DNA from: Candidatus Nomurabacteria bacterium
GTDB lineage: Bacteria > Patescibacteriota > Minisyncoccia > Phycocordibacterales > UBA2100
Assembly: GCA_943359395.1 (NCBI GenBank)
Contig: CALRHH010000004.1
Coordinates: 1,699-65,698 of the forward strand
Direction: 5' to 3'
Length of the DNA stretch: 64,000 nucleotides
In this document: in pieces, positions 2,690 through 54,251 of the stretch
How the letters are laid out: each line of letters begins with the position of its first letter
How positions within the stretch are numbered: the first letter of the stretch is position 1
The notes under the pieces: generated by a model
What the model was told of the DNA's origin: nothing
Database searches by the model: none
Seen by the model: only the letters and a program-made list of their open reading frames with translations
Program-made: the position numbers and the translations under genes

Positions 2690-2829
2690 CCATACGTATC
2701 AAGAGCGTGGCGAGAGTTCCGGCTCAACGAACCACCAGCAGCGTGCTCGAAAGAGTAACGTGCTCCATCCGGCCCTTTACGGGAAGATGCTTCATCGAAT
2801 GTAGTCTCCCGACAGGGAGACGTTTTGTT
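2690..2829 (+). promoter_or_regulatory. Candidate riboswitch-like 5' leader of metK with an intrinsic terminator.
   Basis: A GTATCAAGAG segment resembling the SAM-I P1/J1-2 motif, a structured GC-rich core, and a terminator GTCTCCC-GACA-GGGAGAC + TTTTGTT at 2804..2829, which lies 33 nt upstream of the metK ATG. Confidence 0.4.
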
Positions 2830-2862: not shown

Positions 2863-3918
2863 ATGTTCCACTCACTTGAGCGATACACGACAGAGAGCGT
2901 TACCTCAGGACATCCCGATAAAGTGTGTGACCAAATATCAGACGCTATTCTCGATGCGTGCCTCGCGCAGGACCCTTCGAGCCGCGTCGCTGTAGAATCT
3001 TTCGGCAGCCACGGTACGCTCATGCTCGGCGGAGAAGTAAAAACGAAGGCAAAAGTAAATTTTGAAAAAATCGCACGCAAGGTATACCGCGAAATTGGAT
3101 ACACGGATACCCTCAAGGTACTCAACACAATCGCCGTACAATCCCCCGACATCGCGATGGGAGTTGATACGGGCGGCGCGGGAGACCAAGGCATCATGTA
3201 CGGCTATGCGACGAACGAAACGAAAGAGATGCTTCCGCTCGGCGTCGTTCTCTCACATGCACTTGCCCATCGACTCGAGAAGCTCCGCCGTGACGGCACA
3301 CTGAAGTGGCTCAAACCTGACGGTAAAACACAGGTAACGATAAGCAATGGCAAGGTCATCACTGCGCTTTGCTCGACGCAGCACGACAAGAAAGTCTCAC
3401 AAGAAGAAATACGGAAGCAGCTCATCAAACACCTTTTCACTCCCGTACTCGGTTCTGTGAAAAACATCGAAATACTCGTGAATCCGACAGGACAATTTAT
3501 CATCGGTGGATTTACTGCCGATGCAGGTCTCACCGGCCGCAAGATAATGGTGGATACGTATGGCGGTGTCATGCCGCACGGAGGCGGGGCGTTCTCAGGA
3601 AAAGATTCAACAAAAGTAGACCGATCAGCCGCCTACATGTGCCGCTTCGTTGCCAAGAATCTTGTTGCAAATGGATATGCAAAGAAAGCTCTCGTCTCTG
3701 TCGCCTATGCTATCGGACGCATCGAGCCGGTCATGATTGAGGCATTTGATGAGAAAGGAAAGAACCTCACGAAGGTTGTGAACGAAAACTTCGATTTCCG
3801 TCCGCAGGCAATTATCGAACGCCTCGGCCTCCGTAAGCCAATATTCCGCGAAACAGCTGCATACGGACACTTCGGAGTAAGCGGCCGCCCGTGGGAAAAA
3901 ATAATCAAACTGAAGTAG
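2863..3918 (+). CDS. metK: S-adenosylmethionine synthetase.
   Basis: GHPDKVCDQISDAILDA, GGGAFSGKDSTKVDRSAAY, and a C-terminal ETAAYGHFG motif. Confidence 0.9.
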   Translation: MFHSLERYTTESVTSGHPDKVCDQISDAILDACLAQDPSSRVAVESFGSHGTLMLGGEVKTKAKVNFEKIARKVYREIGYTDTLKVLNTIAVQSPDIAMGVDTGGAGDQGIMYGYATNETKEMLPLGVVLSHALAHRLEKLRRDGTLKWLKPDGKTQVTISNGKVITALCSTQHDKKVSQEEIRKQLIKHLFTPVLGSVKNIEILVNPTGQFIIGGFTADAGLTGRKIMVDTYGGVMPHGGGAFSGKDSTKVDRSAAYMCRFVAKNLVANGYAKKALVSVAYAIGRIEPVMIEAFDEKGKNLTKVVNENFDFRPQAIIERLGLRKPIFRETAAYGHFGVSGRPWEKIIKLK

Positions 3919-17373: not shown

Positions 17374-18888
17374 CTAGAGTCCTCCGAGCAACGCGTTCAG
17401 CTTCGCTCGTGTATTCGGACCAACGTAGCCGTATCCCGAGTCTCCTTTTTTCGCGATGCTGTATTTCACTTGGAATTTCTGTACGGCACGCGCAGTCGCC
17501 GGCCCGAAGTAGATCGTCTCACGTCCCAGAGAACCTACGCCGCTTGCCGCGACTTGCGTGCCCGCATCGGAATTGAGGATTTTCTGGAGCACCCGGACAT
17601 CTTCGCCGATTGTTCCCAAAGTAAGACCCCGTGCGAGCGGACGAGAAGAAAATTCCGACTCTACAATCGTTCCTTGCTCAGCCACCTTTTTGAGTACGTC
17701 CCAGATGGCGGGGTCCTGTCCGCCGTCGAGCTTGAATATCGAGACGCCGCGCACCCCGAGCTTCTTCGCGAGATCAATCTTCTGCTGGACCGATTGCGCA
17801 TCTGGCCAATCAAGGAGACGAAACCCGAGATGCGAATTGTACGTATCAGCGTACGCCGTGGCAGCAAGGGCAGCGAAAAGTGCCGATGTAGGACCGAGAG
17901 AGACGGGCGTGGTGCTCGTTGCAGCATTTGCAACATACGTGAAGTACATTTCCCCTGCCGTGTTACGTTGCGGTGTAATACCATACTGTGCGGCGATATC
18001 TGTCGCATACCGAGGATTGAATACCCAGAGGATACCGTACGAATATTCTTTGCCTTCATACGCCGTGACGTCATATTCGTAACCGTATGTCGGAACGCCG
18101 ATAAGTATTTTGCTTTTAGAAATATCTTTCATCATAAACCGGATGCTTTTTTCTACCCAAGCGGGGTCAGCAACCGGGGCGTAGAGTTGCGTAGAAGAAG
18201 CCGCTGTGGCCACAAGCTTGCGGTCGATGCCTTGCTGGTCGTAGGTCATAATACGTACTCTGTCACAGTACTTGTTGATTTCTTTCAGATCATTGGCGTA
18301 AACACCGGCATTCTCCGGAAGAGATGTCCCCCAATACTGATCTTCGAGCGGTGTACGAGACTCGACGGAACACATAATCATTTTGGAGCCCATGCGCATA
18401 TCCAGGCCCTTCAAAAAAGTGGAGAAGTGATCCTTGTCTTTTGCATACTTGCCCTCAAAGTCGATATCGATACCATCGTAGCCGCCCTCCTTCACAAGTG
18501 CGACGATACGGTCCTCAAGTGCAATACGTGACTTCTGATTGCTCAATAATTGGTGTAGGGTTTCTCCCCCACTCGACATAACGGTTGGAATGACACGAAC
18601 ATTTTTTGCCCTGGCAGTGGCGATAAACGAGAGCCAAGGCTCAGCCTCAAGCGCACCGTTGTCACGCAAGGTCCCGTCGTTGCGAATTGTGTAGACGAAC
18701 GGATTCACTTCTGTGAGCGTATCTAAATGGGGCAAGGTATCAGCCGTCCCCGTAGCGACGCGCCAGTATGGTATCCAGCCTGTCACTTCGAACGGTGCTT
18801 CCGTCGCGGCTGACGCCGTCAGAGGAACGGTAAAAACGAGTGCGCACAGAAAAACAAAAGAATTTCTCATACCCCGTGAGAGAAACAC
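17374..18888 (-). CDS. Secreted glycoside hydrolase family 18 (chitinase / peptidoglycan-hydrolase-like) with a C-terminal peptidoglycan-binding domain.
   Basis: GGYDGIDIDFE (DxxDxDxE) GH18 catalytic motif and a C-terminal VRVLQKILNSDAGTQV..ARAVQKFQ PG_binding_1-like repeat. The true start is more likely the ATG at 18871, which gives the signal peptide MRNSFVFLCALVFTVPLTASAA. A repeat element overlaps the region just upstream. Confidence 0.8.
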   Translation of the reverse strand: MFLSRGMRNSFVFLCALVFTVPLTASAATEAPFEVTGWIPYWRVATGTADTLPHLDTLTEVNPFVYTIRNDGTLRDNGALEAEPWLSFIATARAKNVRVIPTVMSSGGETLHQLLSNQKSRIALEDRIVALVKEGGYDGIDIDFEGKYAKDKDHFSTFLKGLDMRMGSKMIMCSVESRTPLEDQYWGTSLPENAGVYANDLKEINKYCDRVRIMTYDQQGIDRKLVATAASSTQLYAPVADPAWVEKSIRFMMKDISKSKILIGVPTYGYEYDVTAYEGKEYSYGILWVFNPRYATDIAAQYGITPQRNTAGEMYFTYVANAATSTTPVSLGPTSALFAALAATAYADTYNSHLGFRLLDWPDAQSVQQKIDLAKKLGVRGVSIFKLDGGQDPAIWDVLKKVAEQGTIVESEFSSRPLARGLTLGTIGEDVRVLQKILNSDAGTQVAASGVGSLGRETIYFGPATARAVQKFQVKYSIAKKGDSGYGYVGPNTRAKLNALLGGL

Positions 18889-18970
18889 GCCGAACGATTC
18901 AGCCGAAAACTTGGTGTATTCAACAGTATATGTGTATCAAGCATATAAATTTGATTCTCTCATGGGGTCA
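18870..18970. repeat. Inverted pair of the family-1 motif at and upstream of the GH18 start.
   Basis: ATACCCCGTGAGAGA at 18870..18884 and TCTCTCATGGGGT at 18956..18968. Confidence 0.7.
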
Positions 18971-19113
18971 CACCCCTTTGACGTATCAGTGTAACAAAAG
19001 TTACGGGCAACGTAGAACGGACGAGGTGAGAGTGCGAAGTATTTGTACTTCCGGACCGGAGAGCACGCGGAAATCGAAGATTCTTTGCCGGCTATGAAGA
19101 AATATTCCGGTCT

Positions 19114-21779: not shown

Positions 21780-22664
21780 TTATGACCGAGAAAGCTTCGA
21801 ATTATCGGTCAGGAGCAAAACGCCAAGAAGAAACGGGGGCAGAGAGGCAAGCTGCCAAATGTTTGGAAGCTGATGTAGGATAATCCATGCCAGTACCAAG
21901 GTCACTAGAGGCGTAATGCTCACGAGTGCGCTCGCTTTTGTCACAGATACTCGGTGAATGCCCTCAATCCAGAGCATCTTTTCAAATCCAAGAAAAACTA
22001 CCCCGTTCAAGAGAAGGAGCGGCAACGCCGCCGATACACCACCCACCGTACCACTGACGTTAAAAAAATACAAAAATGCAAATAAAACTATCGCGGACAG
22101 CGCGCTGCGTAAAAACATGATGCTATCGCTTGAAGCAATTTTGCGAGCCTTCTGTTGGAAATAATTCCCGAACGGTGCGATAAAGGTCGCACAAAGAATA
22201 AATACATCTCCCGCGTTTATACCTCCGAAGTCACGTCCGAGAATGATGAGAGCGCCGGCAATCATGAGAGCGGCCCCCAGTATATGTGCCGGTAAGATGC
22301 CCTCCTTGCGATAGATATTAAAAAAGACGAAGGATGTGCATATTTGAAAGAGAATAATGATGGAAACATTGCCCGGCGTCGAATATTTGAGACCGGAAAA
22401 ATAGAGGCCGTAAAAGAGTATCCCGATAAAAAAAGTGATGAGGGCACCGTATTTCCACAAGAGTGGATTCCGAAGCTCCATCCAGTGTTTACGATATGTG
22501 ATCAAGCATGCGAAAAAGGTAGCCGCAAACAACGTACTCCACGCAAGTGAAACGAAATTAGAGACCTGCGTATAGGTAAGGGTAACCCCGATGGGGAGAA
22601 AACCTCCGAGTGTCGCGGCTGAAAGTACGTAGAGATCCCCCTTCCGCGTCTCGGACCAGGTCAT
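21780..22664 (-). CDS. EamA/DMT-family transporter.
   Basis: About ten TM helices with two-lobed EamA-like organisation. Confidence 0.55.
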   Translation of the reverse strand: MTWSETRKGDLYVLSAATLGGFLPIGVTLTYTQVSNFVSLAWSTLFAATFFACLITYRKHWMELRNPLLWKYGALITFFIGILFYGLYFSGLKYSTPGNVSIIILFQICTSFVFFNIYRKEGILPAHILGAALMIAGALIILGRDFGGINAGDVFILCATFIAPFGNYFQQKARKIASSDSIMFLRSALSAIVLFAFLYFFNVSGTVGGVSAALPLLLLNGVVFLGFEKMLWIEGIHRVSVTKASALVSITPLVTLVLAWIILHQLPNIWQLASLPPFLLGVLLLTDNSKLSRS

Positions 22665-22671
22665 CGGGCAA

Positions 22672-22775
22672 GTATACCCCGTGAGATATGGACGATTTCA
22701 CGGCGAGGGAACCATGAACGCTCTGCAATTCAAGAAAGTCTACCAAAAGATAGCGTGTCTATCTCATGGGGTATA
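22672..22775. repeat. Inverted pair of the family-1 motif upstream of the EamA transporter start.
   Basis: GTATACCCCGTGAGATA at 22672..22688 and TATCTCATGGGGTATA at 22760..22775. Confidence 0.8.
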
Positions 22776-29620: not shown

Positions 29621-30664
29621 TTAAGCTCCCCGAGAGACATTGGCGTATATCGAGAGCAGCGCAAACAGAAGGCTGAGCGACAGCGGTCCAAGGAAGATAC
29701 CGATGGGACCGAAGAACATGATACCGCCGAGAACCGCGAGGAGAACGAGGAGTGGGTGGAGGTGCATCCCGCTGCCGATGAGTTTGGGCGAAAGAAAGTT
29801 GTCGATGAGACCTACGGCGAGCGTTCCCCACGCGAGGAGTCCGATTGCCTGCGGCGTCGCTCCGGTAAAAAAGAGAAACGCGACTGCAGGAATAAAGACG
29901 AGCGAGGTGCCGACACCTGGAATGAGCGCCGCGAGGGCGGCCACAGTTCCCCACAGAACAGCGCTCGGCACCCTAAAAAGAGTGAGGCCAACTATTGAAA
30001 GGCCCCCCTGCACGAGCGCAATGGTGAGATTCCCCTTGATAACGGAGTTGACCGCGTGCTCAAGCCTGTCGAAAACACCCTCATCGTCCCTATCATTCAG
30101 AGGAGAAAGCTCGATGAGTATTTGTCGCACGCGCTTTCCGTCGCGCAAGAGGTAGTAGAGTGCGATAAAGAAAACAAAGAACGAGAGGAGGAGGGACGAG
30201 ATGCTTGAGAAAATATCGCCGGCATTTCCAGTAATCCACTGCAGTGCTTCCTTTGTATAGGTATCAATATTCGCCGAGACGTCCCGGGAAAATTCCCCGA
30301 TTCCGGGAACAACCCCGCCGAACGAGGCGTCAATTCGAAGGAAGAGTTCTGCGATGGTGCTCCGCCCGCCCGCCTCTTCAAGTGAGAAGTATACTTCACG
30401 CGCTTCATTTCCGACGAGCACTCCAACGAGAGCGAGCGGAAGAAGTATGAGAACGACACTTATGACAACCGTAAGCAGCGCGGCGATGCTTGGCCAACCG
30501 CCAAGAAGCTGGGACATTTTTCTATACAGTCCTTGAAGAACGACGGCAAACACCGCGGCGAGAATGAGAGGCTTCAAAAACGGCGAGAATATCAGCGCTA
30601 CAAGAACAATCGCCACTGCGAGTAGAACCATCAAGAAATACGGTCGCAGGCGCTCACCTTGCAT
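29621..30664 (-). CDS. AI-2E family transporter (PerM/UPF0118).
   Basis: Eight-TM topology with characteristic AI-2E spacing and a conserved G-rich C-terminal region. Confidence 0.8.
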   Translation of the reverse strand: MQGERLRPYFLMVLLAVAIVLVALIFSPFLKPLILAAVFAVVLQGLYRKMSQLLGGWPSIAALLTVVISVVLILLPLALVGVLVGNEAREVYFSLEEAGGRSTIAELFLRIDASFGGVVPGIGEFSRDVSANIDTYTKEALQWITGNAGDIFSSISSLLLSFFVFFIALYYLLRDGKRVRQILIELSPLNDRDDEGVFDRLEHAVNSVIKGNLTIALVQGGLSIVGLTLFRVPSAVLWGTVAALAALIPGVGTSLVFIPAVAFLFFTGATPQAIGLLAWGTLAVGLIDNFLSPKLIGSGMHLHPLLVLLAVLGGIMFFGPIGIFLGPLSLSLLFALLSIYANVSRGA

Positions 30665-30673
30665 ATAGGAGGA

Positions 30674-30741
30674 GTATACCCCGTGAGATAAACACTTCCA
30701 CCTTTTACTGTGGTTCGGACATTCCTATCTCACGGGGTATA
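30674..30741. repeat. Inverted pair of the family-1 motif GTATACCCCGTGAGATA with a 35-nt spacer, upstream of the AI-2E transporter start.
   Basis: GTATACCCCGTGAGATA at 30674..30690 and its exact reverse complement TATCTCACGGGGTATA at 30726..30741. Confidence 0.8.
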
Positions 30742-30780
30742 GCAAAAAGGAGCCCCCTCTGCCTTCCGGGTAATAAACAC

Positions 30781-31191
30781 TTACAAGAAGAAAACGAGAT
30801 AGAGACCAATTGCCGTTATGAGAGCCCCGACGAGCGGCATCGTCGAGACGGGAAACTTCTTCACCATGGCGTGAAGTTGTTCAGGAGCAAAAATGTAGAC
30901 GATTCCCTTGATAAGAATCGCCCAAGACATGACCATCACAAACAGCGACAGATAATCTGTTCCCGTGTTTCCCCGCAGAACGAGGGTTGCCCCACCAAAA
31001 ACAAGCGCTATGCCAGCGAGGAACGAAATAGCTCGATGCTCAAATAAATCCTTGAGCACGAGCATGAGCGTCTTCTTATGCGTAATGACAAATATCCCAC
31101 TTACCGCAAAATACACCCCCAACACCTTTGCAATGAGAACTGTCGTTTCCATAATTATATGACTGATTACGTAATAAACACACGCCACCAC
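30781..31191 (-). CDS. Hypothetical membrane protein; probable start at the internal Met at 31152.
   Basis: Three or four TM helices with no recognisable motif. Confidence 0.4.
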   Translation of the reverse strand: MVACVYYVISHIIMETTVLIAKVLGVYFAVSGIFVITHKKTLMLVLKDLFEHRAISFLAGIALVFGGATLVLRGNTGTDYLSLFVMVMSWAILIKGIVYIFAPEQLHAMVKKFPVSTMPLVGALITAIGLYLVFFL

Positions 31192-32091: not shown

Positions 32092-33162
32092 TTACCCGGT
32101 GATGCCCGAGAGGGAGTGTGGTTTGCCTTCGGCAATAGCCGCGTGTGTGATGCGGATGAATTGTGCTTTCTTTTCAAATTCTGGAATGGTCTTCGCACCG
32201 ACATAGCCCATGCCTACCTGCACGCCGGATGCGAGTGTCGCAATTATCTCCCCCACTGGTCCTTTGTACGGCACGAGAGCTTCTACCCCCTCAGGCACTG
32301 CCTTGCGTCCGTGAGTGAAGTACCGCTCCGAGCCCGACGCGCTTTTGATGACCGCCTGAGAACCCATGCCACGGTATTCTTTGAACTTTTTGCCGTCTTT
32401 CTCGACGATTTTGCCCGGCGATTCATCGGTGCCTGCGAAGAGATTGCCGAGCATGACCGCCGAGGCTCCTGCAGCGAGCGCCTTGGCGATGTCGCCAGAG
32501 GTGCGAATGCCGCCATCTGCAATGACGGGTACTTTGTACTTGCGAGCAACAGAGACAACATCGAGCACGGCCGAGAGCTGTGGCACGCCTACGCCTGAAA
32601 TAAGTCGTGTCGTACAAATGCTTCCAGGGCCGACGCCGACCTTGACGGCGTCTGCAAATGCGCATACGGCCTTGGCGGCTTCTCCGGTCGCGATGTTGCC
32701 AAATATCATCTTGGAGTGTTTCAGGTTTTTCTTTATTTTGCGTGCGCTCTCTACAACATTCAGATTGTGTCCGTGTGCGCAATCGATAACGACGACGTCA
32801 CATCCCGCTTCATCAAGCGCCTTCGCGCGGTCGGCGGCAAACGGACCGCATGCTGCGGCAACTTTCACCCCAGCCTCTTTTACGTGTTTTACTATCTTGA
32901 CCTGCACCTCTATCGAACAGTTGCGATGAATGACGCCAAGGCCTCCGAGTTTGCCGAGGGCTATCGCCATTTCCTCTTCCGTCACGCGATCCATCGCGGC
33001 GGAGAGGAAGGGCACCGAGAGCTCGATGCCTGCTATTTTTGTTTTGAGAGACGCGTCCGCAGGCTCCATCTGTGAAGCACCCGGTCGGATGAGGACGTCA
33101 TCGAATGTAAAACCCTCCTTGAGAATCTTAGCTGCCACTTGTGGTGAGCTACGTCGAATCAT
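32092..33162 (-). CDS. guaB: IMP dehydrogenase / GMP reductase family protein, a GuaB-like enzyme lacking the CBS pair.
   Basis: FTFDDVLIRPG N-terminus, catalytic GVGPGSICTTRLISGVGVPQLSAV, and ADGGIRTSGDIAKALAAGAS. At 356 aa the CBS subdomain is replaced by a short loop. Confidence 0.8.
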   Translation of the reverse strand: MIRRSSPQVAAKILKEGFTFDDVLIRPGASQMEPADASLKTKIAGIELSVPFLSAAMDRVTEEEMAIALGKLGGLGVIHRNCSIEVQVKIVKHVKEAGVKVAAACGPFAADRAKALDEAGCDVVVIDCAHGHNLNVVESARKIKKNLKHSKMIFGNIATGEAAKAVCAFADAVKVGVGPGSICTTRLISGVGVPQLSAVLDVVSVARKYKVPVIADGGIRTSGDIAKALAAGASAVMLGNLFAGTDESPGKIVEKDGKKFKEYRGMGSQAVIKSASGSERYFTHGRKAVPEGVEALVPYKGPVGEIIATLASGVQVGMGYVGAKTIPEFEKKAQFIRITHAAIAEGKPHSLSGITG

Positions 33163-51292: not shown

Positions 51293-51943
51293 CTATTGCT
51301 GTCCTACGCCGTCATCGACCCAGCGATACATATTCTCCGAAATGGTGAATGAACGCTCTTGAATAGGTCCGGTCTGCCATGTGACGGTCACCGTAACACG
51401 TATCTCGTCCATGCTCCCCGTCACCTGGTAGGCGTGTAGAGTCCGCGTGAAATATGTCGGTGTCCACGCACCCAGGTCATCGCCAAGCCCCGGATAGCCG
51501 TACAGAGTCAGGTTTGTCTGAAGTGGCGGACATGTTCCATTGCACCGAACGATGGCGGTCGACGCGTCTCCCTTGCGACCATCGATTGTAAACGGCTCAT
51601 TGAGTCGAGGAATGAGTCCGAAGATGTCCGGTGCCCCTTCAGCACTTCCCGCGATAACGAGAATTTGGGAATCTCGAATACTGCGCACAGCCTCGATTGC
51701 CTCCTGTGCAAGGTAGAAAGCCGTTATTTGGTCTCGCGCATAGTACGCAGAACCGAGACTTTTCGACGCGAGAGCCATCGGAGACACCACCGCGACAGAC
51801 AAGAGCATCACCGCGACAAGCGTCTCGATGAGAGTAAAACCAGCTTGTAGCTTGTAGCTTGTAGCTGACAGAGGCCAGAATCTTCTGAATTTTTTGCTTA
51901 CTACAAGCTGTAAGCTGTAAGCTGTAAGCTTGAATTCCATCAT
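51293..51943 (-). CDS. Type IV pilin-like protein (pseudopilin) with a long leader.
   Basis: KLQAG|FTLIETLVAV prepilin motif. The leader contains a heptamer inverted repeat. Confidence 0.7.
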   Translation of the reverse strand: MMEFKLTAYSLQLVVSKKFRRFWPLSATSYKLQAGFTLIETLVAVMLLSVAVVSPMALASKSLGSAYYARDQITAFYLAQEAIEAVRSIRDSQILVIAGSAEGAPDIFGLIPRLNEPFTIDGRKGDASTAIVRCNGTCPPLQTNLTLYGYPGLGDDLGAWTPTYFTRTLHAYQVTGSMDEIRVTVTVTWQTGPIQERSFTISENMYRWVDDGVGQQ

Positions 51944-52648: not shown

Positions 52649-53344
52649 CTATTGTGAAGTCTCCCTTTGTACTGATATCTGACCGTTTGCCCCGACTATC
52701 ACACTCATGACATCGCCGCGGGGGGAGAGGAGAATAATTCGAGCGCTTTCAGCGCAAATGCCAGCGCCATAGACACATCCCACTCCGTTTGCACTTATCC
52801 ACGCGTCCGCCTCGGGACGTTTAAAAACAATGTCGAGCTCTGAGGCCGGGCTCACTCCCACGCAGGTAGCGGCGTCAGCTCCCTCAGGAGCGCAGAGACC
52901 GGATATTCTGTAACCATTACGAATAGTATACGGTGACGGAGAAACGTTCTCGTCGGGTGAATCGAAGAAGCCGTCCTTGTCGACATCCGCAAAAAGTTCG
53001 TAATGCAATGGGTCGTCGATATTGAAGTGCATACCGTACCCGGAGGAAAAATTTCCCGCCCCGTATCTCTGAACAGAGATGCCGAATACCTGCGCTTGCC
53101 GGACTGAAAGCGCCACATCGTAGGCCAGATTTTCAAGTTGTACAATTCCACCAAAGCGATTGTTGTTGACCAGCACTACGGACGTCACGACGATAATAAT
53201 CCCCGTCACGACTACGAGCTCGACCAAAGTAAACCCCGTTAGAGAGGCCCTTCGGGGTGCACGAGAAACCAAACCGTTTTTCTCTAACGGGGTAAAAGCC
53301 CGAAGACGTGAGAGGTGTCTATGCCGTAGAGTGATACGAACCAT
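52649..53344 (-). CDS. Type IV pilin-like protein (pseudopilin). The start is uncertain: the ORF extends to 53557, candidate starts are the ATG at 53344 and a TTG at 53252.
   Basis: RRASLTG|FTLVELVVVTG prepilin motif. The long ORF extension overlaps pilD and is unlikely to be translated. Confidence 0.6.
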   Translation of the reverse strand: MVRITLRHRHLSRLRAFTPLEKNGLVSRAPRRASLTGFTLVELVVVTGIIIVVTSVVLVNNNRFGGIVQLENLAYDVALSVRQAQVFGISVQRYGAGNFSSGYGMHFNIDDPLHYELFADVDKDGFFDSPDENVSPSPYTIRNGYRISGLCAPEGADAATCVGVSPASELDIVFKRPEADAWISANGVGCVYGAGICAESARIILLSPRGDVMSVIVGANGQISVQRETSQ

Positions 53345-54189
53345 ATGATGATGCAACTTAGAATGAGAAACGGACCAAATGGAATCTCGCTTTTCATTGT
53401 AAACCCTCCGCGGGGCTTTCCGCGCGAAGTTATCCCAAGTGTGTACAGCGCTTCTGCAATGTGCGGCAAAGGTAGAAGTATGAGTATGGACACGATGGCA
53501 CCCACGACAAATGCTCCGAAGACGGCAAGCAAGCCGAGAGCGGGACCGAGTAACCACCCGATGCCGAGGGCAAGCTTAGCATCCCCCAATCCCATCCATC
53601 TCCCACGGGAGAACAGCCACAAAGCAAAAAGTGGTGCGGCGACAACAGGTCCCGCAAAGATGAACCACAACAATGTGTACTCGTCCGAGAACGGCTGTAA
53701 AAATTGAGAAACGAATGCGAGTCCGGCGAACGCGTACACCCACTCGTCGGGGATTATCGTGTGTAATATATCGTAAGTGGTAATACATACGAAAACGGCA
53801 AGAACGCAAAGGTGTATGAGGATGAGCGCAACTCCGGGCAATGATAGACCGAGGGATGAGGAGCCAACCCAGAAACCCAAGAGTCCGAAAAGGAGTCCTG
53901 TCGCGGCCTCGACAAGCGGATACTGAACAGAGACGCGGCCTCGACACGCCCGGCATCTTCCTCCGAGCTCCAACCACGAGAAAACGGGTATCATGTCGTA
54001 CCATCGAAGTTGCGTGCCACAGCTCATACATCCACTTCGGCCGTTGAGAGAGCGAGCCCCGTGGCGCAGAATGACGACGTTGAGAAAACTCCCGACGATA
54101 AGGCCAAGAAGTCCGAAGAGAAGTCCGAAGCTCATTGGCTCACAGTATACCCCGTGGGATAAACGCATCAGCGAGACGAAGAGAATCAT
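53284..54189 (-). CDS. pilD: Prepilin peptidase (A24 family); the true start is probably the ATG at 54135.
   Basis: CMSCGTQLRWYDMIPVFSWLELGGRCRACRG zinc motif and a polytopic peptidase domain with catalytic aspartates. The N-terminal ORF extension overlaps a repeat element. Confidence 0.85.
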   Translation of the reverse strand: MILFVSLMRLSHGVYCEPMSFGLLFGLLGLIVGSFLNVVILRHGARSLNGRSGCMSCGTQLRWYDMIPVFSWLELGGRCRACRGRVSVQYPLVEAATGLLFGLLGFWVGSSSLGLSLPGVALILIHLCVLAVFVCITTYDILHTIIPDEWVYAFAGLAFVSQFLQPFSDEYTLLWFIFAGPVVAAPLFALWLFSRGRWMGLGDAKLALGIGWLLGPALGLLAVFGAFVVGAIVSILILLPLPHIAEALYTLGITSRGKPRGGFTMKSEIPFGPFLILSCIIIWFVSLYGIDTSHVFGLLPR

Positions 54190-54251
54190 ATCCTCATGAC
54201 GAACCTGGTGCGTCTAAGATACATCCACATTTCCTATCCCATGGGGTATAC
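54145..54251. repeat. Inverted pair of the family-1 motif upstream of pilD.
   Basis: GTATACCCCGTGGGATA at 54145..54161 and TATCCCATGGGGTATAC at 54235..54251. Confidence 0.75.

What the first reader, a model, noticed from the sequence alone, without database searches (positions are those of the whole stretch)
30674..30741. Family of inverted 16-17-nt repeat pairs (GTATACCCCGTGAGATA) placed 7-9 nt upstream of start codons at four loci
The same 15-17-mer occurs eight times in this window, always as an inverted pair separated by 35-90 nt. The loci are 30674..30741, 22672..22775, 54145..54251 and 18870..18970. In each case the proximal copy sits 0-9 nt upstream of the ATG of a minus-strand gene (AI-2E transporter, EamA transporter, pilD, GH18), and the pair lies just downstream of the stop of the preceding gene. 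The spacer sequences are unrelated, so these are not copies of one MITE. In three of the four pairs the distal copy carries CATGGGG where the proximal has CACGGGG; this preserves pairing as a G-U wobble in a plus-strand (antisense) RNA but gives an A-C mismatch in the sense mRNA. Possible roles are a paired operator for a global regulator, a stem-loop RNA or terminator element, or a DNA-uptake-sequence-like repeat in an organism with a full pilus/ComF competence set, given that uptake sequences often occur as inverted terminator pairs. The position that overlaps the ribosome-binding region is unusual.
Basis: seen in the sequence. Interest (0 to 1): 0.75.

Follow-up and report, generated by a model that had tools for sequence, protein, structure and literature searches.

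The report
Tiny transposon lodged in promoter boxes
The repeated inverted 16-mers are the two ends of a small non-coding mobile element (a MITE) that has inserted into the TATA of the -10 promoter box just upstream of leaderless genes in a Kaiserbacteria-like (Parcubacteria) genome, which explains their fixed distance from start codons.

Summary
The window holds four inverted pairs of TATACCCCRTGAGATA, where 0.02 hits are expected by chance, plus a fifth pair of a sister motif (ACCCCGTTAGAGA). The pairs are the terminal inverted repeats of about 63-nt and about 100-nt elements. More than 114 further genomic stretches carry them, mostly in Parcubacteria/Paceibacteria MAGs. A TTTA/TAAA-flanked subtype occurs in Planctomycetota and Verrucomicrobiota MAGs. 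This genome uses leaderless mRNAs with extended -10 promoters (TTTGnTAnnnT, then 6-8 nt, then ATG). The elements sit inside that hexamer, as TTTGnTAT[ACCCC...GGGGT]ATACT-N6-8-ATG. Five orthologous AI-2E promoters without the element read TGnTATACT-N7-10-ATG (GGTATACT in L143), so they serve as empty sites. The sister family shows a 2-bp target duplication in a TNNA target (88 of 115 copies), and some copies share an interior while sitting in unrelated flanks. In Planctomycetota, and in this window's prepilin gene, copies are in-frame insertions within genes. The family is therefore a MITE, closest in behaviour to Neisseria Correia elements and Rickettsia RPEs. It was not found in the searchable literature. 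The arms stay intact while the interior drifts, which suggests a secondary host role such as a hairpin or a binding site, but this is unproven. A DNA-uptake sequence is rejected. A dedicated operator or a canonical terminator is not supported.

The parts
30674..30741 (-). Family-1 element, short class. Arms are TATACCCCGTGAGATA at 30675-30690 and 30726-30741, with a 35-nt interior. It lies between a 136-aa ORF (stop at 30781) and the AI-2E transporter gene.
   Evidence: The orthologous element in L141 has identical arms and a 57% identical interior. Empty orthologous sites are seen in L143 and L267-L270.
30662..30678 (-). Proximal junction promoter of the AI-2E gene: -10 box TATACT (30678..30673), 8 nt, then ATG (30664..30662). 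The geometry is leaderless or nearly leaderless.
   Evidence: The proximal flank has T at hexamer position 6 in 94% of one-sided elements.
30738..30748 (-). Distal junction ttttTGcTATA. This is the upstream half of the original extended -10 box, displaced by the insertion.
   Evidence: TGnTATA in 19 of 53 distal flanks against about 3 expected. Empty sites read TGnTATACT.
22672..22775 (-). Family-1 element, long class. Arms are at 22673-22688 (CGTG) and 22760-22775 (CATG), with a 71-nt interior. TATACT, then 6 nt, then the EamA ATG at 22664. The distal flank reads TGaTATA and lies 8 nt after the DEAD-box helicase stop.
   Evidence: The element plus the EamA gene form a 1.08-kb indel relative to L140 and L141.
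54145..54251 (-). Family-1 element, long class, with covarying arm variant GTGGGATA / TATCCCAT (54146-54161 and 54235-54250). TATACT, then 8 nt, then the prepilin peptidase ATG at 54135.
   Evidence: Concerted arm changes are shown.
18869..18970 (-). Degenerate family-1 copy. Arms are ACCCCGTGAGAGAA (18871-18884) and TTCTCTCATGGGGT (18955-18968). It lies between the GH18 gene's own promoter (TTTTGTTACACT, about 18989-19000) and its ATG at 18870, so it is inside the 5' UTR.
   Evidence: The orthologous sites in L140 and L141 lack it.
53231..53295 (-). Family-2 element (ACCCCGTTAGAGA...TCTCTAACGGGGT, 61 nt) with a TT/AA 2-bp duplication in a TTTA target. It is a 63-nt in-frame insertion in the prepilin leader. 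It overlaps the 3' end of the prepilin peptidase gene and supplies that gene's TAG stop.

Best explanation
The inverted 16-mers are the terminal inverted repeats of a miniature, non-coding transposable element. The core is ACCCCRTGAGATA...TATCTCAYGGGGT. The basic unit is about 61 nt, and a second class of about 98 nt exists. The element inserts into a T-NN-A target and duplicates the central 2 bp.

In this Kaiserbacteria-like genome and its Paceibacteria relatives the target used is almost always TATA. Specifically, it is the TATA inside the extended -10 box (TTTGnTATAcT) that sits 6-8 nt upstream of the ATG of leaderless genes. After insertion the element's terminal T plus the duplicated AT rebuild an intact TATACT next to the gene. 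The old upstream half (TTTGnTATA) is pushed about 65 or 100 nt away, where it now ends in a dead hexamer (TATACC). That produces the fixed 7-9 nt distance to start codons and the appearance of a pair sitting between stop and start.

Shown: the family, its ends, its position in the -10 box, filled and empty sites, target duplications in the sister family, and in-frame intragenic copies.

Inferred: that the rebuilt proximal box is the active promoter. Also inferred: that the arms are kept by selection for a host-level role, such as a read-through RNA hairpin that insulates, terminates or stabilises the upstream transcript, or a protein-binding site. Also inferred: that the 98-nt class arose from tandem dimers that lost their central 28-nt perfect palindrome.
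For: 1. Non-random pairs.
2. More than 114 further stretches, mostly in Parcubacteria/Paceibacteria MAGs, with bimodal lengths of 61-67 and 94-105 nt and tandem arrays joined as GGGGTATACCCC.
3. The ATG lies 10-12 nt after GGGGTA in 58 of 255 half-sites, and on both sides when the flanking genes are divergent.
4. The genome-wide promoter rule is TAnnnT, 6 nt, then start: 12 of 66 ORF starts against 5 of 800 internal ATGs, often with TGn upstream. The anti-Shine-Dalgarno sequence is lost in about half of Parcubacteria (PMC9297842).
5. The proximal flank reads TATAC-T (T in 94%). The distal flank reads TATA-n-C (T in 2%). In sense orientation the distal flank is TGnTATA in 19 of 53 cases, against about 3 expected.
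6. Empty orthologous AI-2E promoters read TGaTATACT-7-ATG, TGcTATACT-10, TGgTATACT-8 (twice) and GGTATACT-8. The filled site in the window reads ttttTGcTAT[ACCCC..GGGGT]ATACT-8-ATG. L140 and L142 carry decayed copies.
7. The sister family has more than 120 metagenomic stretches. The flanking NN is identical on both sides in 88 of 115 copies, where chance is 1 in 16. The outer T is present in 108 of 115 and the outer A in 110 of 115. A 12-member cluster shares an interior but has unrelated flanks. Family 1 has TAT|ATA flanks in 91 of 136 copies.
8. Insertion polymorphism. A 23-aa insert in Planctomycetota rhamnulokinases is present in some homologs of 78-88% identity and absent in others, and it splits the Pfam FGGY_N domain. 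A copy splits a Memo-like ORF. In the window's prepilin gene, removing the element plus one TT restores MVRITLRHRHLSRLRA|FTLVEL. Nested copies occur in L078.
9. Arms are conserved in situ. Between the window and L141 the arms match at 31 of 32 positions while the interior is 57% identical. That alignment scores 5, against a random mean of -6.5 with sd 4.3, and 0 of 126 random pairs reach it. Between L032 and L146 the arms show 0 of 32 changes while the interior shows 6 of 41.
10. Concerted arm changes. Both arms deviate from consensus at the same position in 15 cases, against 0.5 expected, and 13 of those 15 are complementary.
Against: - No autonomous element or transposase was found. Unpaired halves flanking a gene are also absent.
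- Family-1 interiors are unrelated even within one genome. Recent copy-and-paste of family 1 is therefore not demonstrated. Mobility is shown directly only for family 2 and for the Planctomycetota copies.
- The family-1 duplication AT is palindromic. It cannot be told apart from part of the inverted repeat.
- The Planctomycetota subtype has TTT...AAA flanks, which are inverted rather than direct. The rhamnulokinase filled and empty sites show no clean duplication.
- The CpG position of the arms is never mutated in both arms (0 of 127 against 12.5 expected). This model does not explain that.
- Promoter activity and transcript ends were not measured.
- Gene calls are crude ORF calls.
Confidence: 0.78

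Rival explanations
1. The pair is a bipartite operator. A conserved dimeric or tetrameric regulator binds both 16-mers and controls many promoters, forming a global regulon. On this view the elements are ordinary regulatory DNA and not mobile DNA.
For: The arms are nearly invariant while the interiors drift. The proximal arm occupies positions -13 to -26 of the promoter. Each arm is a partial dyad (10 of 16). The spacing falls into two discrete classes.
Against: The downstream genes are a broad housekeeping mix: pheS, prfB, ribosomal proteins, dnaE, transporters and pilD. Target duplications, shared-interior copies, nested copies and in-frame intragenic insertions show an insertional origin. 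Four arm variants coexist in one genome, each self-complementary, which fits pairing or copying better than a single protein's specificity. The element is dispensable in close relatives. Binding by a protein, for example a domesticated transposase, as a secondary role is not excluded.
Confidence: 0.12
2. It is primarily an RNA element. The hairpin forms in read-through transcripts and acts as a terminator, an RNase III processing site or a 3' stabiliser that punctuates operons. Sequence conservation would come from a specific RNA-binding factor.
For: Stable predicted hairpins on both strands, with z-scores of -2.4 to -4.6. Concerted complementary changes in the arms. The element often starts 4-13 nt after the upstream stop codon. 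The distal flank prefers the base that would give a G-U pair with the proximal U. That preference is equally explained by the G-14 of a TGn remnant.
Against: Loops are 35-72 nt, no U-tract follows, and the terminator scan gives no call. No Rfam family matches. Copies inside intact ORFs argue against strong termination. At the CpG position the sense RNA more often has an A-C mismatch (23 cases) than a G-U pair (12 cases), and the compensated A-U state never occurs. This view does not explain the target duplications. It is plausible as an exapted role layered on the MITE.
Confidence: 0.07
3. It is a REP/REPIN-type element mobilised by a RAYT or TIR-associated tyrosine (HUH) transposase, not a cut-and-paste MITE.
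For: Copies are paired in inverted orientation with discrete spacings, form tandem clusters, and singlets look like decayed remnants. REP dimers whose spacers differ in sequence but are similar in length, intragenic REPs, and TIR families next to tyrosine transposases are all described (PMC3733652).
Against: A single arm is not itself a palindrome. There is no GTAG or CGTC tag, and the GGGGWSAS motif does not match. HUH/Y1 transposition leaves no target duplication, whereas family 2 has a 2-bp duplication. No Y1 transposase was detected in the loci, although the test was weak.
Confidence: 0.03
4. It is a DNA-uptake sequence for the type IV pilus / ComEC competence system, arranged as inverted terminator pairs.
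For: The window encodes pilins, PilD and related genes. Neisseria uptake sequences often occur as inverted pairs (general knowledge).
Against: There is only about one pair per 13 kb, and single copies are essentially absent (32 of 318 unpaired, mostly chance matches or remnants). Copies have a fixed geometry inside promoters and carry target duplications. The same ends occur in Planctomycetota and Verrucomicrobiota MAGs. In the one Patescibacteria transformation study read here, no uptake sequence is mentioned (PMC10633639).
Confidence: 0.01

Closest known systems
Correia repeat-enclosed elements (Neisseria MITE)
   Same: A short non-coding element with terminal inverted repeats. It duplicates a 2-bp A/T target, comes in two size classes, and mostly sits immediately upstream of genes. 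Its ends take part in sigma-70-type promoters. The transcribed inverted repeats form a hairpin (RNase III substrate in Neisseria), and no cognate transposase is known (review PMC10969869, plus general knowledge).
   Different: Correia interiors are conserved and carry an IHF site; here family-1 interiors are unrelated. Correia elements are confined to Neisseria, whereas these ends are shared by many Paceibacteria lineages and by Planctomycetota/Verrucomicrobiota MAGs. This element splits an existing -10 hexamer and rebuilds it, and it serves leaderless genes. RNase III cleavage and promoter activity are untested here.
Rickettsia palindromic elements (RPE)
   Same: Palindromic repeats found as in-frame insertions in intact protein-coding genes (PMC10969869). 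Here that applies to the prepilin leader, rhamnulokinase and a Memo-like protein.
   Different: RPEs are about 100-150 bp, conserved along their whole length and mostly intragenic. In Paceibacteria these elements are mostly intergenic and promoter-associated.
REP / BIME / REPIN dimers
   Same: Inverted doublets at discrete spacings, tandem clusters, extragenic location after genes, spacers that differ in sequence but not in length, and occasional intragenic copies (PMC3733652).
   Different: A REP unit is itself an imperfect palindrome with a GTAG or CGTC tag and moves through a Y1 transposase without target duplication. Here one arm is not a palindrome, and a 2-bp duplication is present.
Neisseria DUS / Pasteurellaceae USS uptake sequences
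   Same: A short conserved oligomer, sometimes in inverted pairs after genes, in organisms with type IV pili.
   Different: Uptake sequences occur about once per kb, commonly as single copies and inside genes, without target duplications or fixed promoter geometry. None of this matches.

Membership tests
MITE (miniature inverted-repeat transposable element) | Terminal inverted repeats at both ends of a short element (under about 300 bp) | tested here: met
   Arms of 14-18 nt and elements of 61-67 or 94-105 nt.
MITE (miniature inverted-repeat transposable element) | Target-site duplication flanking the element | tested here: met
   Family 2: an identical flanking dinucleotide in 88 of 115 copies, in a TNNA context. 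Family 1: TAT|ATA in 91 of 136. This is consistent, but AT is palindromic, so the family-1 case is ambiguous on its own. The Planctomycetota subtype (TTT...AAA) does not show a direct duplication.
MITE (miniature inverted-repeat transposable element) | Many copies per genome with no coding capacity | tested here: met
   Five copies in 64 kb. Several copies occur per MAG. Interiors of 35-72 nt carry no conserved ORF.
MITE (miniature inverted-repeat transposable element) | Copies at unrelated sites share the internal sequence (the element moves as a unit) | tested here: inconclusive
   Met for family 2: a 12-member cluster and several smaller ones have similar interiors and unrelated flanks. Not met for family 1: interiors are unrelated except for orthologs and tandem duplicates.
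MITE (miniature inverted-repeat transposable element) | Presence/absence polymorphism at orthologous sites (filled versus empty) | tested here: met
   AI-2E promoters, GH18 5' UTR, rhamnulokinase and the prepilin reconstruction.
MITE (miniature inverted-repeat transposable element) | A related autonomous element whose transposase recognises the same inverted repeats | tested here: inconclusive
   None was seen in about 1 Mb of loci. The search was weak, and a long-gap search for inverted-repeat pairs was not possible. Correia elements also lack a known partner.
REP / REPIN (RAYT-mobilised) | Each unit is an imperfect palindrome with a GTAG or CGTC tag | tested here: not met
   The single arm TATCTCACGGGGTATA does not fold on itself and carries no tag.
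REP / REPIN (RAYT-mobilised) | Associated single-copy Y1 (HUH) transposase and no target duplication | tested here: not met
   A 2-bp duplication is present. No Y1 homolog was found, although the test was weak.
Sigma-70 extended -10 promoter of a leaderless gene (for the proximal junction) | A TAnnnT hexamer 6-8 nt upstream of the start codon, with A at position 2 and T at position 6 | tested here: met
   TATACT at 6, 8 and 8 nt in the window. T at position 6 in 94% of proximal flanks. The same geometry holds at genes without the element.
Sigma-70 extended -10 promoter of a leaderless gene (for the proximal junction) | Transcription actually starts there | not testable with these tools
   No transcriptome data are available.
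Intrinsic terminator | A GC-rich stem, a short loop (3-8 nt) and a following U-tract | tested here: not met
   Loops are 35-72 nt and the tail is TATACT-N. The scan does not call them.
DNA uptake sequence | Very high copy number (about 1 per kb) with frequent single copies, including inside genes | tested here: not met
   About 1 pair per 13 kb. Only 32 of 318 halves are unpaired, mostly chance matches or remnants.

The most novel reading that the evidence does not exclude
The arms are not just relics. In Paceibacteria they may have been domesticated into a genome-wide punctuation module for leaderless transcription units. On this reading one conserved factor, perhaps a transposase-derived DNA- or RNA-binding protein or RNase III, recognises the invariant 14-16-nt arms or their hairpin. 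That recognition would end or insulate the upstream transcript and set the activity of the rebuilt -10 box. A single mobile-element family would then wire a large share of housekeeping operons into one control circuit. The unexplained rule that the CpG of the arms is never mutated in both arms (0 of 127) would be part of that recognition.
Probability: 0.25. Interest if true: 0.8.

Novelty: new member of a known kind. Interest (0 to 1): 0.58.

Why it matters
Parcubacteria and Kaiserbacteria are uncultivated, and almost nothing is known about how they start and stop transcription. This finding gives three usable things.

1. A concrete promoter rule for these genomes: an extended -10 box, 6-8 nt, then a leaderless ATG. 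This improves start-codon calling. For example, pilD starts at 54135 and not at 54189.

2. An abundant mobile-element family, absent from the literature I could search, whose ends are shared by distant phyla. It targets the -10 TATA itself and rebuilds it, which is a neat way for a transposon to be tolerated in a very compact genome. It is also a marker for horizontal exchange between Patescibacteria and Planctomycetota/Verrucomicrobiota.

3. A source of in-frame 21-23-residue insertions in proteins, including a new prepilin leader with its own G|FTLVEL cleavage site.

If the arms prove to be bound by a host factor, the element would be a natural handle for engineering expression in these organisms.

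Tried and rejected
- Rfam, at gathering and E-value thresholds: no family at any element.
- Literature searches for the sequence strings and for CPR promoter, leaderless or MITE terms: only a primer coincidence in a Lysobacter paper.
- Viral contigs: 25 single hits, consistent with chance.
- CRISPR-like reading (28-nt palindromic repeat plus 35-nt spacer): rejected, because solitary elements carry only half repeats and the 72-nt interiors cannot hold a repeat.
- Invertible promoter or recombinase sites: rejected, because 35 nt is too short for synapsis.
- Integron attC: rejected, because there is no core-site similarity and the flanking genes are housekeeping genes.
- SigB-type (GGGTAT) or sigma-32-type (CCCCAT) promoter reading of the arm: dropped, because the generic TGnTAnnnT rule explains the geometry.
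- Interior derived from the flanking DNA: no.
- Canonical -35 box: only a weak TTGaaA signal at 17-nt spacing.
- tRNA genes next to elements that have no adjacent ORF: no.
- Remnants of arms in the middle of long-class interiors: none above the shuffled control. The idea that the long class is a dimer minus its central palindrome therefore rests only on arithmetic (2 x 63.5 - 28 = 99).
- Y1 transposase search in the loci: nothing.
- The 'Candidatus Saccharibacteria' labels of several TPA MAGs: judged unreliable. The DnaE of one such MAG is 77-78% identical to Minisyncoccota/Kaiserbacteria proteins. I therefore do not claim the family for true Saccharibacteria.

Full report
**1. The observation**

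ATACCCCGTGAGATA occurs 7 times at up to 2 mismatches, where shuffles give 0.02. The paired pattern TACCCCRTGRGA-N31-91-TCYCAYGGGGTA occurs 3 times, where shuffles give 0. The pairs lie at 30675-30741, 22673-22775 and 54146-54250. A degenerate pair with GAGAGAA arms lies at 18871-18968.

A fifth pair of a related motif, ACCCCGTTAGAGA / TCTCTAACGGGGT, lies at 53233-53293.

Pfam confirms the downstream genes as an AI-2E transporter, an EamA transporter, a prepilin peptidase and a GH18 enzyme. For the peptidase the real start is the ATG at 54135. The longer ORF start at 54189 lies inside the element.

**2. Distribution**

Most hits are MAGs labelled Kaiserbacteria, Campbellbacteria, Nomurabacteria, Paceibacterota or Parcubacteria. 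A subtype flanked by TTTA...TAAA occurs in Planctomycetota and Verrucomicrobiia MAGs and in short contigs binned as Bacteroidales.

Several MAGs are labelled 'uncultured Candidatus Saccharibacteria'. The DnaE of one of them is 77-78% identical to Minisyncoccota and Kaiserbacteria proteins. I treat those labels as unreliable and claim the family only for Paceibacteria/Parcubacteria.

The window itself is Kaiserbacteria-like. Homologs of its AI-2E protein at up to 79% identity are named Kaiserbacteria.

Across 128 pairs the consensus is g-TATACCCCRTGAGATA-[variable]-TATCTCAYGGGGTATA-c. Lengths are bimodal at 61-67 and 94-105 nt. Interiors are unrelated. Tandem arrays share the junction GGGGTATACCCC. 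Halves almost never occur alone: 32 of 318 are unpaired, and most of those are chance matches or remnants.

**3. Why the motif sits 7-9 nt from start codons**

The genome is essentially leaderless. Of 66 long-ORF starts, 12 have a TAnnnT hexamer exactly 6 nt upstream, against 5 of 800 internal ATGs. Many of these hexamers are preceded by TGn and a T-run. No GGAGG-type ribosome-binding sites are seen upstream of the starts listed. A published survey reports loss of the anti-Shine-Dalgarno motif in about half of Parcubacteria (PMC9297842).

In the element-bearing loci the ATG lies 10-12 nt after GGGGTA in 58 of 255 half-sites. It lies on both sides when the flanking genes are divergent. The outer end of the motif therefore occupies the position of the -10 box.

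Separating the two flanks settles the point. In 53 one-sided elements the gene-proximal flank reads TATAC-T, with T at hexamer position 6 in 94%. The distal flank reads TATA-n-C, with T in 2%. Read in the sense direction, the distal flank is TGnTATA in 19 of 53 cases (about 3 expected), often as TTTTGnTATA. That is the upstream half of the genome's generic extended -10 box.

**4. Filled and empty sites**

I retrieved orthologs of the AI-2E gene by protein similarity, independently of the motif. Five of them lack the element. They read TGaTATACT-7-ATG (L267, 84% identity), TGcTATACT-10-ATG (L268), TGgTATACT-8-ATG (L269, L270) and GGTATACT-8-ATG (L143).

The window reads ttttTGcTAT[ACCCC...GGGGT]ATACT-8-ATG. 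L141 (85% identity) carries an orthologous element. L140 and L142 carry decayed copies. The element therefore lies inside the hexamer, with AT (or TATA) present on both sides.

At the GH18 gene the degenerate copy lies between the gene's own promoter (TTTTGTTACACT) and the ATG. It is absent from L140 and L141. The EamA gene plus its upstream element form a 1.08-kb indel relative to those relatives.

**5. Evidence that the family is mobile**

- A metagenome scan for the sister motif gave more than 120 stretches with GC content of 31-62%.
- Their flanks follow T-NN-[ACCCC...GGGGT]-NN-A. The NN is identical on both sides in 88 of 115 copies, where chance is 1 in 16. The outer T is present in 108 and the outer A in 110 of 115. 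This indicates a 2-bp target duplication in a TNNA target.
- A 12-member cluster and several smaller clusters have similar interiors but unrelated flanks. Those copies moved as units.
- Family 1 has TAT|ATA flanks in 91 of 136 copies, which corresponds to a TATA target.
- In a Planctomycetota MAG the family-1 element lies inside a rhamnulokinase gene. It adds 23 residues in frame and splits the FGGY_N domain. The insert is present in some homologs of 78-88% identity and absent in others.
- A family-2 copy splits a Memo-like ORF.
- In the window, removing the 53233-53293 element plus one copy of TT restores a normal prepilin start, MVRITLRHRHLSRLRA|FTLVEL. The element is therefore a 63-nt in-frame insertion in the leader peptide. 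It also supplies the stop codon of the overlapping prepilin peptidase gene.
- Nested copies occur in L078.

**6. What keeps the arms intact**

The interiors in the window and in L141 are recognisably orthologous. Their alignment scores 5, against a random mean of -6.5 with sd 4.3, and 0 of 126 random pairs reach that score. They are only 57% identical, while the arms match at 31 of 32 positions.

The rhamnulokinase copies in L032 and L146 show 0 of 32 arm changes against 6 of 41 interior changes.

When arms are detected independently, both deviate from consensus at the same position in 15 cases, where 0.5 are expected, and 13 of those 15 are complementary.

These results point to a constraint on the arms beyond recent insertion. 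It could be pairing in a read-through RNA (the hairpins are stable) or recognition by a protein. Close relatives tolerate decay or absence, so the role is not essential. Neither a canonical terminator nor a canonical -35/-10 promoter is called at the elements. Only a faint TTGaaA signal appears at the -35 position.

One pattern remains unexplained. At the CpG of the arm the states are G/C in 46 pairs, G/T in 48, A/C in 33 and A/T in 0, where 12.5 A/T pairs are expected.

**7. The two size classes**

Twice the short unit minus the central 28-nt perfect palindrome of a tandem dimer gives about 99 nt. That matches the long-class peak, and tandem dimers are common. No arm remnants remain in the long interiors, so this is an inference from arithmetic only.

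**8. Comparison with known systems**

The closest match in behaviour is the Neisseria Correia element: a MITE with a 2-bp A/T duplication, two size classes, outward promoters, an RNase III hairpin and no known transposase (PMC10969869). The in-frame genic copies resemble Rickettsia RPEs (same review). The paired organisation with length-conserved but sequence-variable spacers resembles REP dimers (PMC3733652). However, a single arm is not a palindrome and a target duplication is present, so membership in REP/REPIN fails.

No autonomous partner was found, although the tests were weak. No paper containing the sequence or describing such an element in Patescibacteria was found.

**9. Verdict**

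The finding is real and is largely explained. It is an apparently undescribed MITE family whose preferred and tolerated landing site in these genomes is the TATA of the extended -10 box of leaderless genes. The DNA-uptake reading is rejected. The operator and RNA-hairpin readings survive only as possible secondary, exapted functions.

Noticed in passing
window 53231-53295 and 53284-54135 / 52649-53350: The prepilin peptidase gene and the downstream prepilin gene overlap. The family-2 element sits in the overlap. It gives the peptidase a new stop (LLPR* instead of LLLWSSS*). It gives the prepilin a 21-residue longer leader, whose G|FTLVEL cleavage site is encoded by the element's arm.
   Followed up: yes
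window, many gene starts (e.g. 932, 6387, 12330, 14527, 33162, 37527, 40955, 50613, 62290): The generic promoter architecture is an extended -10 box (TGnTAnnnT), then 6 nt, then ATG, with no Shine-Dalgarno sequence. Most first genes appear to be leaderless. One canonical TTGACT-17-TATAAT promoter precedes the ATG at 33162.
   Followed up: partly
window 2693-2793 (+): A SAM riboswitch (RF00162) match lies just under the gathering score (43.7 against 44.4 bits, E = 1e-6). It is upstream of the plus-strand ORF 2863-3918.
   Followed up: no
window 51841-51924 (5' end of minus-strand ORF 51293-51943): A heptanucleotide tandem repeat (GCTTGTA / AGCTTAC, three or more units) is arranged as an imperfect inverted pair inside the first codons of a gene. 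This could be a slippage-prone tract.
   Followed up: no
alignment A1 (Planctomycetota rhamnulokinases P0001-P0094); L144 301-1848; L032 3141-4859: The same rhamnulokinase family carries several other, unrelated in-frame inserts at different positions. Examples are WHGLPARENTAKMAVPR, ERLAPALPQGMAKPTVAGVASATGAE and EPAVEPQAKYLAPRFTWGS. Their DNA is palindromic, for example CCCCACGTTTTACGTGGGG. These genomes seem to hold many families of in-frame palindromic insertion elements.
   Followed up: partly
L078 2700-3300 (end of a 243-kb contig of an unclassified MAG): A dense cluster of nested and duplicated family-1 copies and solo arms, next to a run of N. It may be an insertion hot spot or an assembly breakpoint caused by the repeat.
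   Followed up: partly
L140 6921-8344: A close relative of the window's organism carries a reverse transcriptase gene next to a bAvd-like gene, a pairing typical of a diversity-generating retroelement. It lies about 2 kb upstream of the AI-2E gene.
   Followed up: no
L028, L029, L033, L074 and other 'uncultured Candidatus Saccharibacteria' TPA MAG loci: The taxonomic labels look wrong. Proteins from these contigs are 77-78% identical to Minisyncoccota/Kaiserbacteria proteins. One element interior (L061) is about 70% identical to that of a Kaiserbacteria locus (L026).
   Followed up: partly
all family-1 pairs (127 distinct): The CpG position of the arm is G/C, G/T or A/C but never A/T (0 observed, 12.5 expected). 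Elements with no adjacent ORF start are almost always the mismatched type (21 of 23).
   Followed up: partly
window 21780-22775 versus L140 / L141: The EamA transporter gene together with its upstream element is a 1.08-kb insertion or deletion between the DEAD-box helicase gene and the PG_binding/TIG gene, relative to two relatives of about 85% identity.
   Followed up: partly
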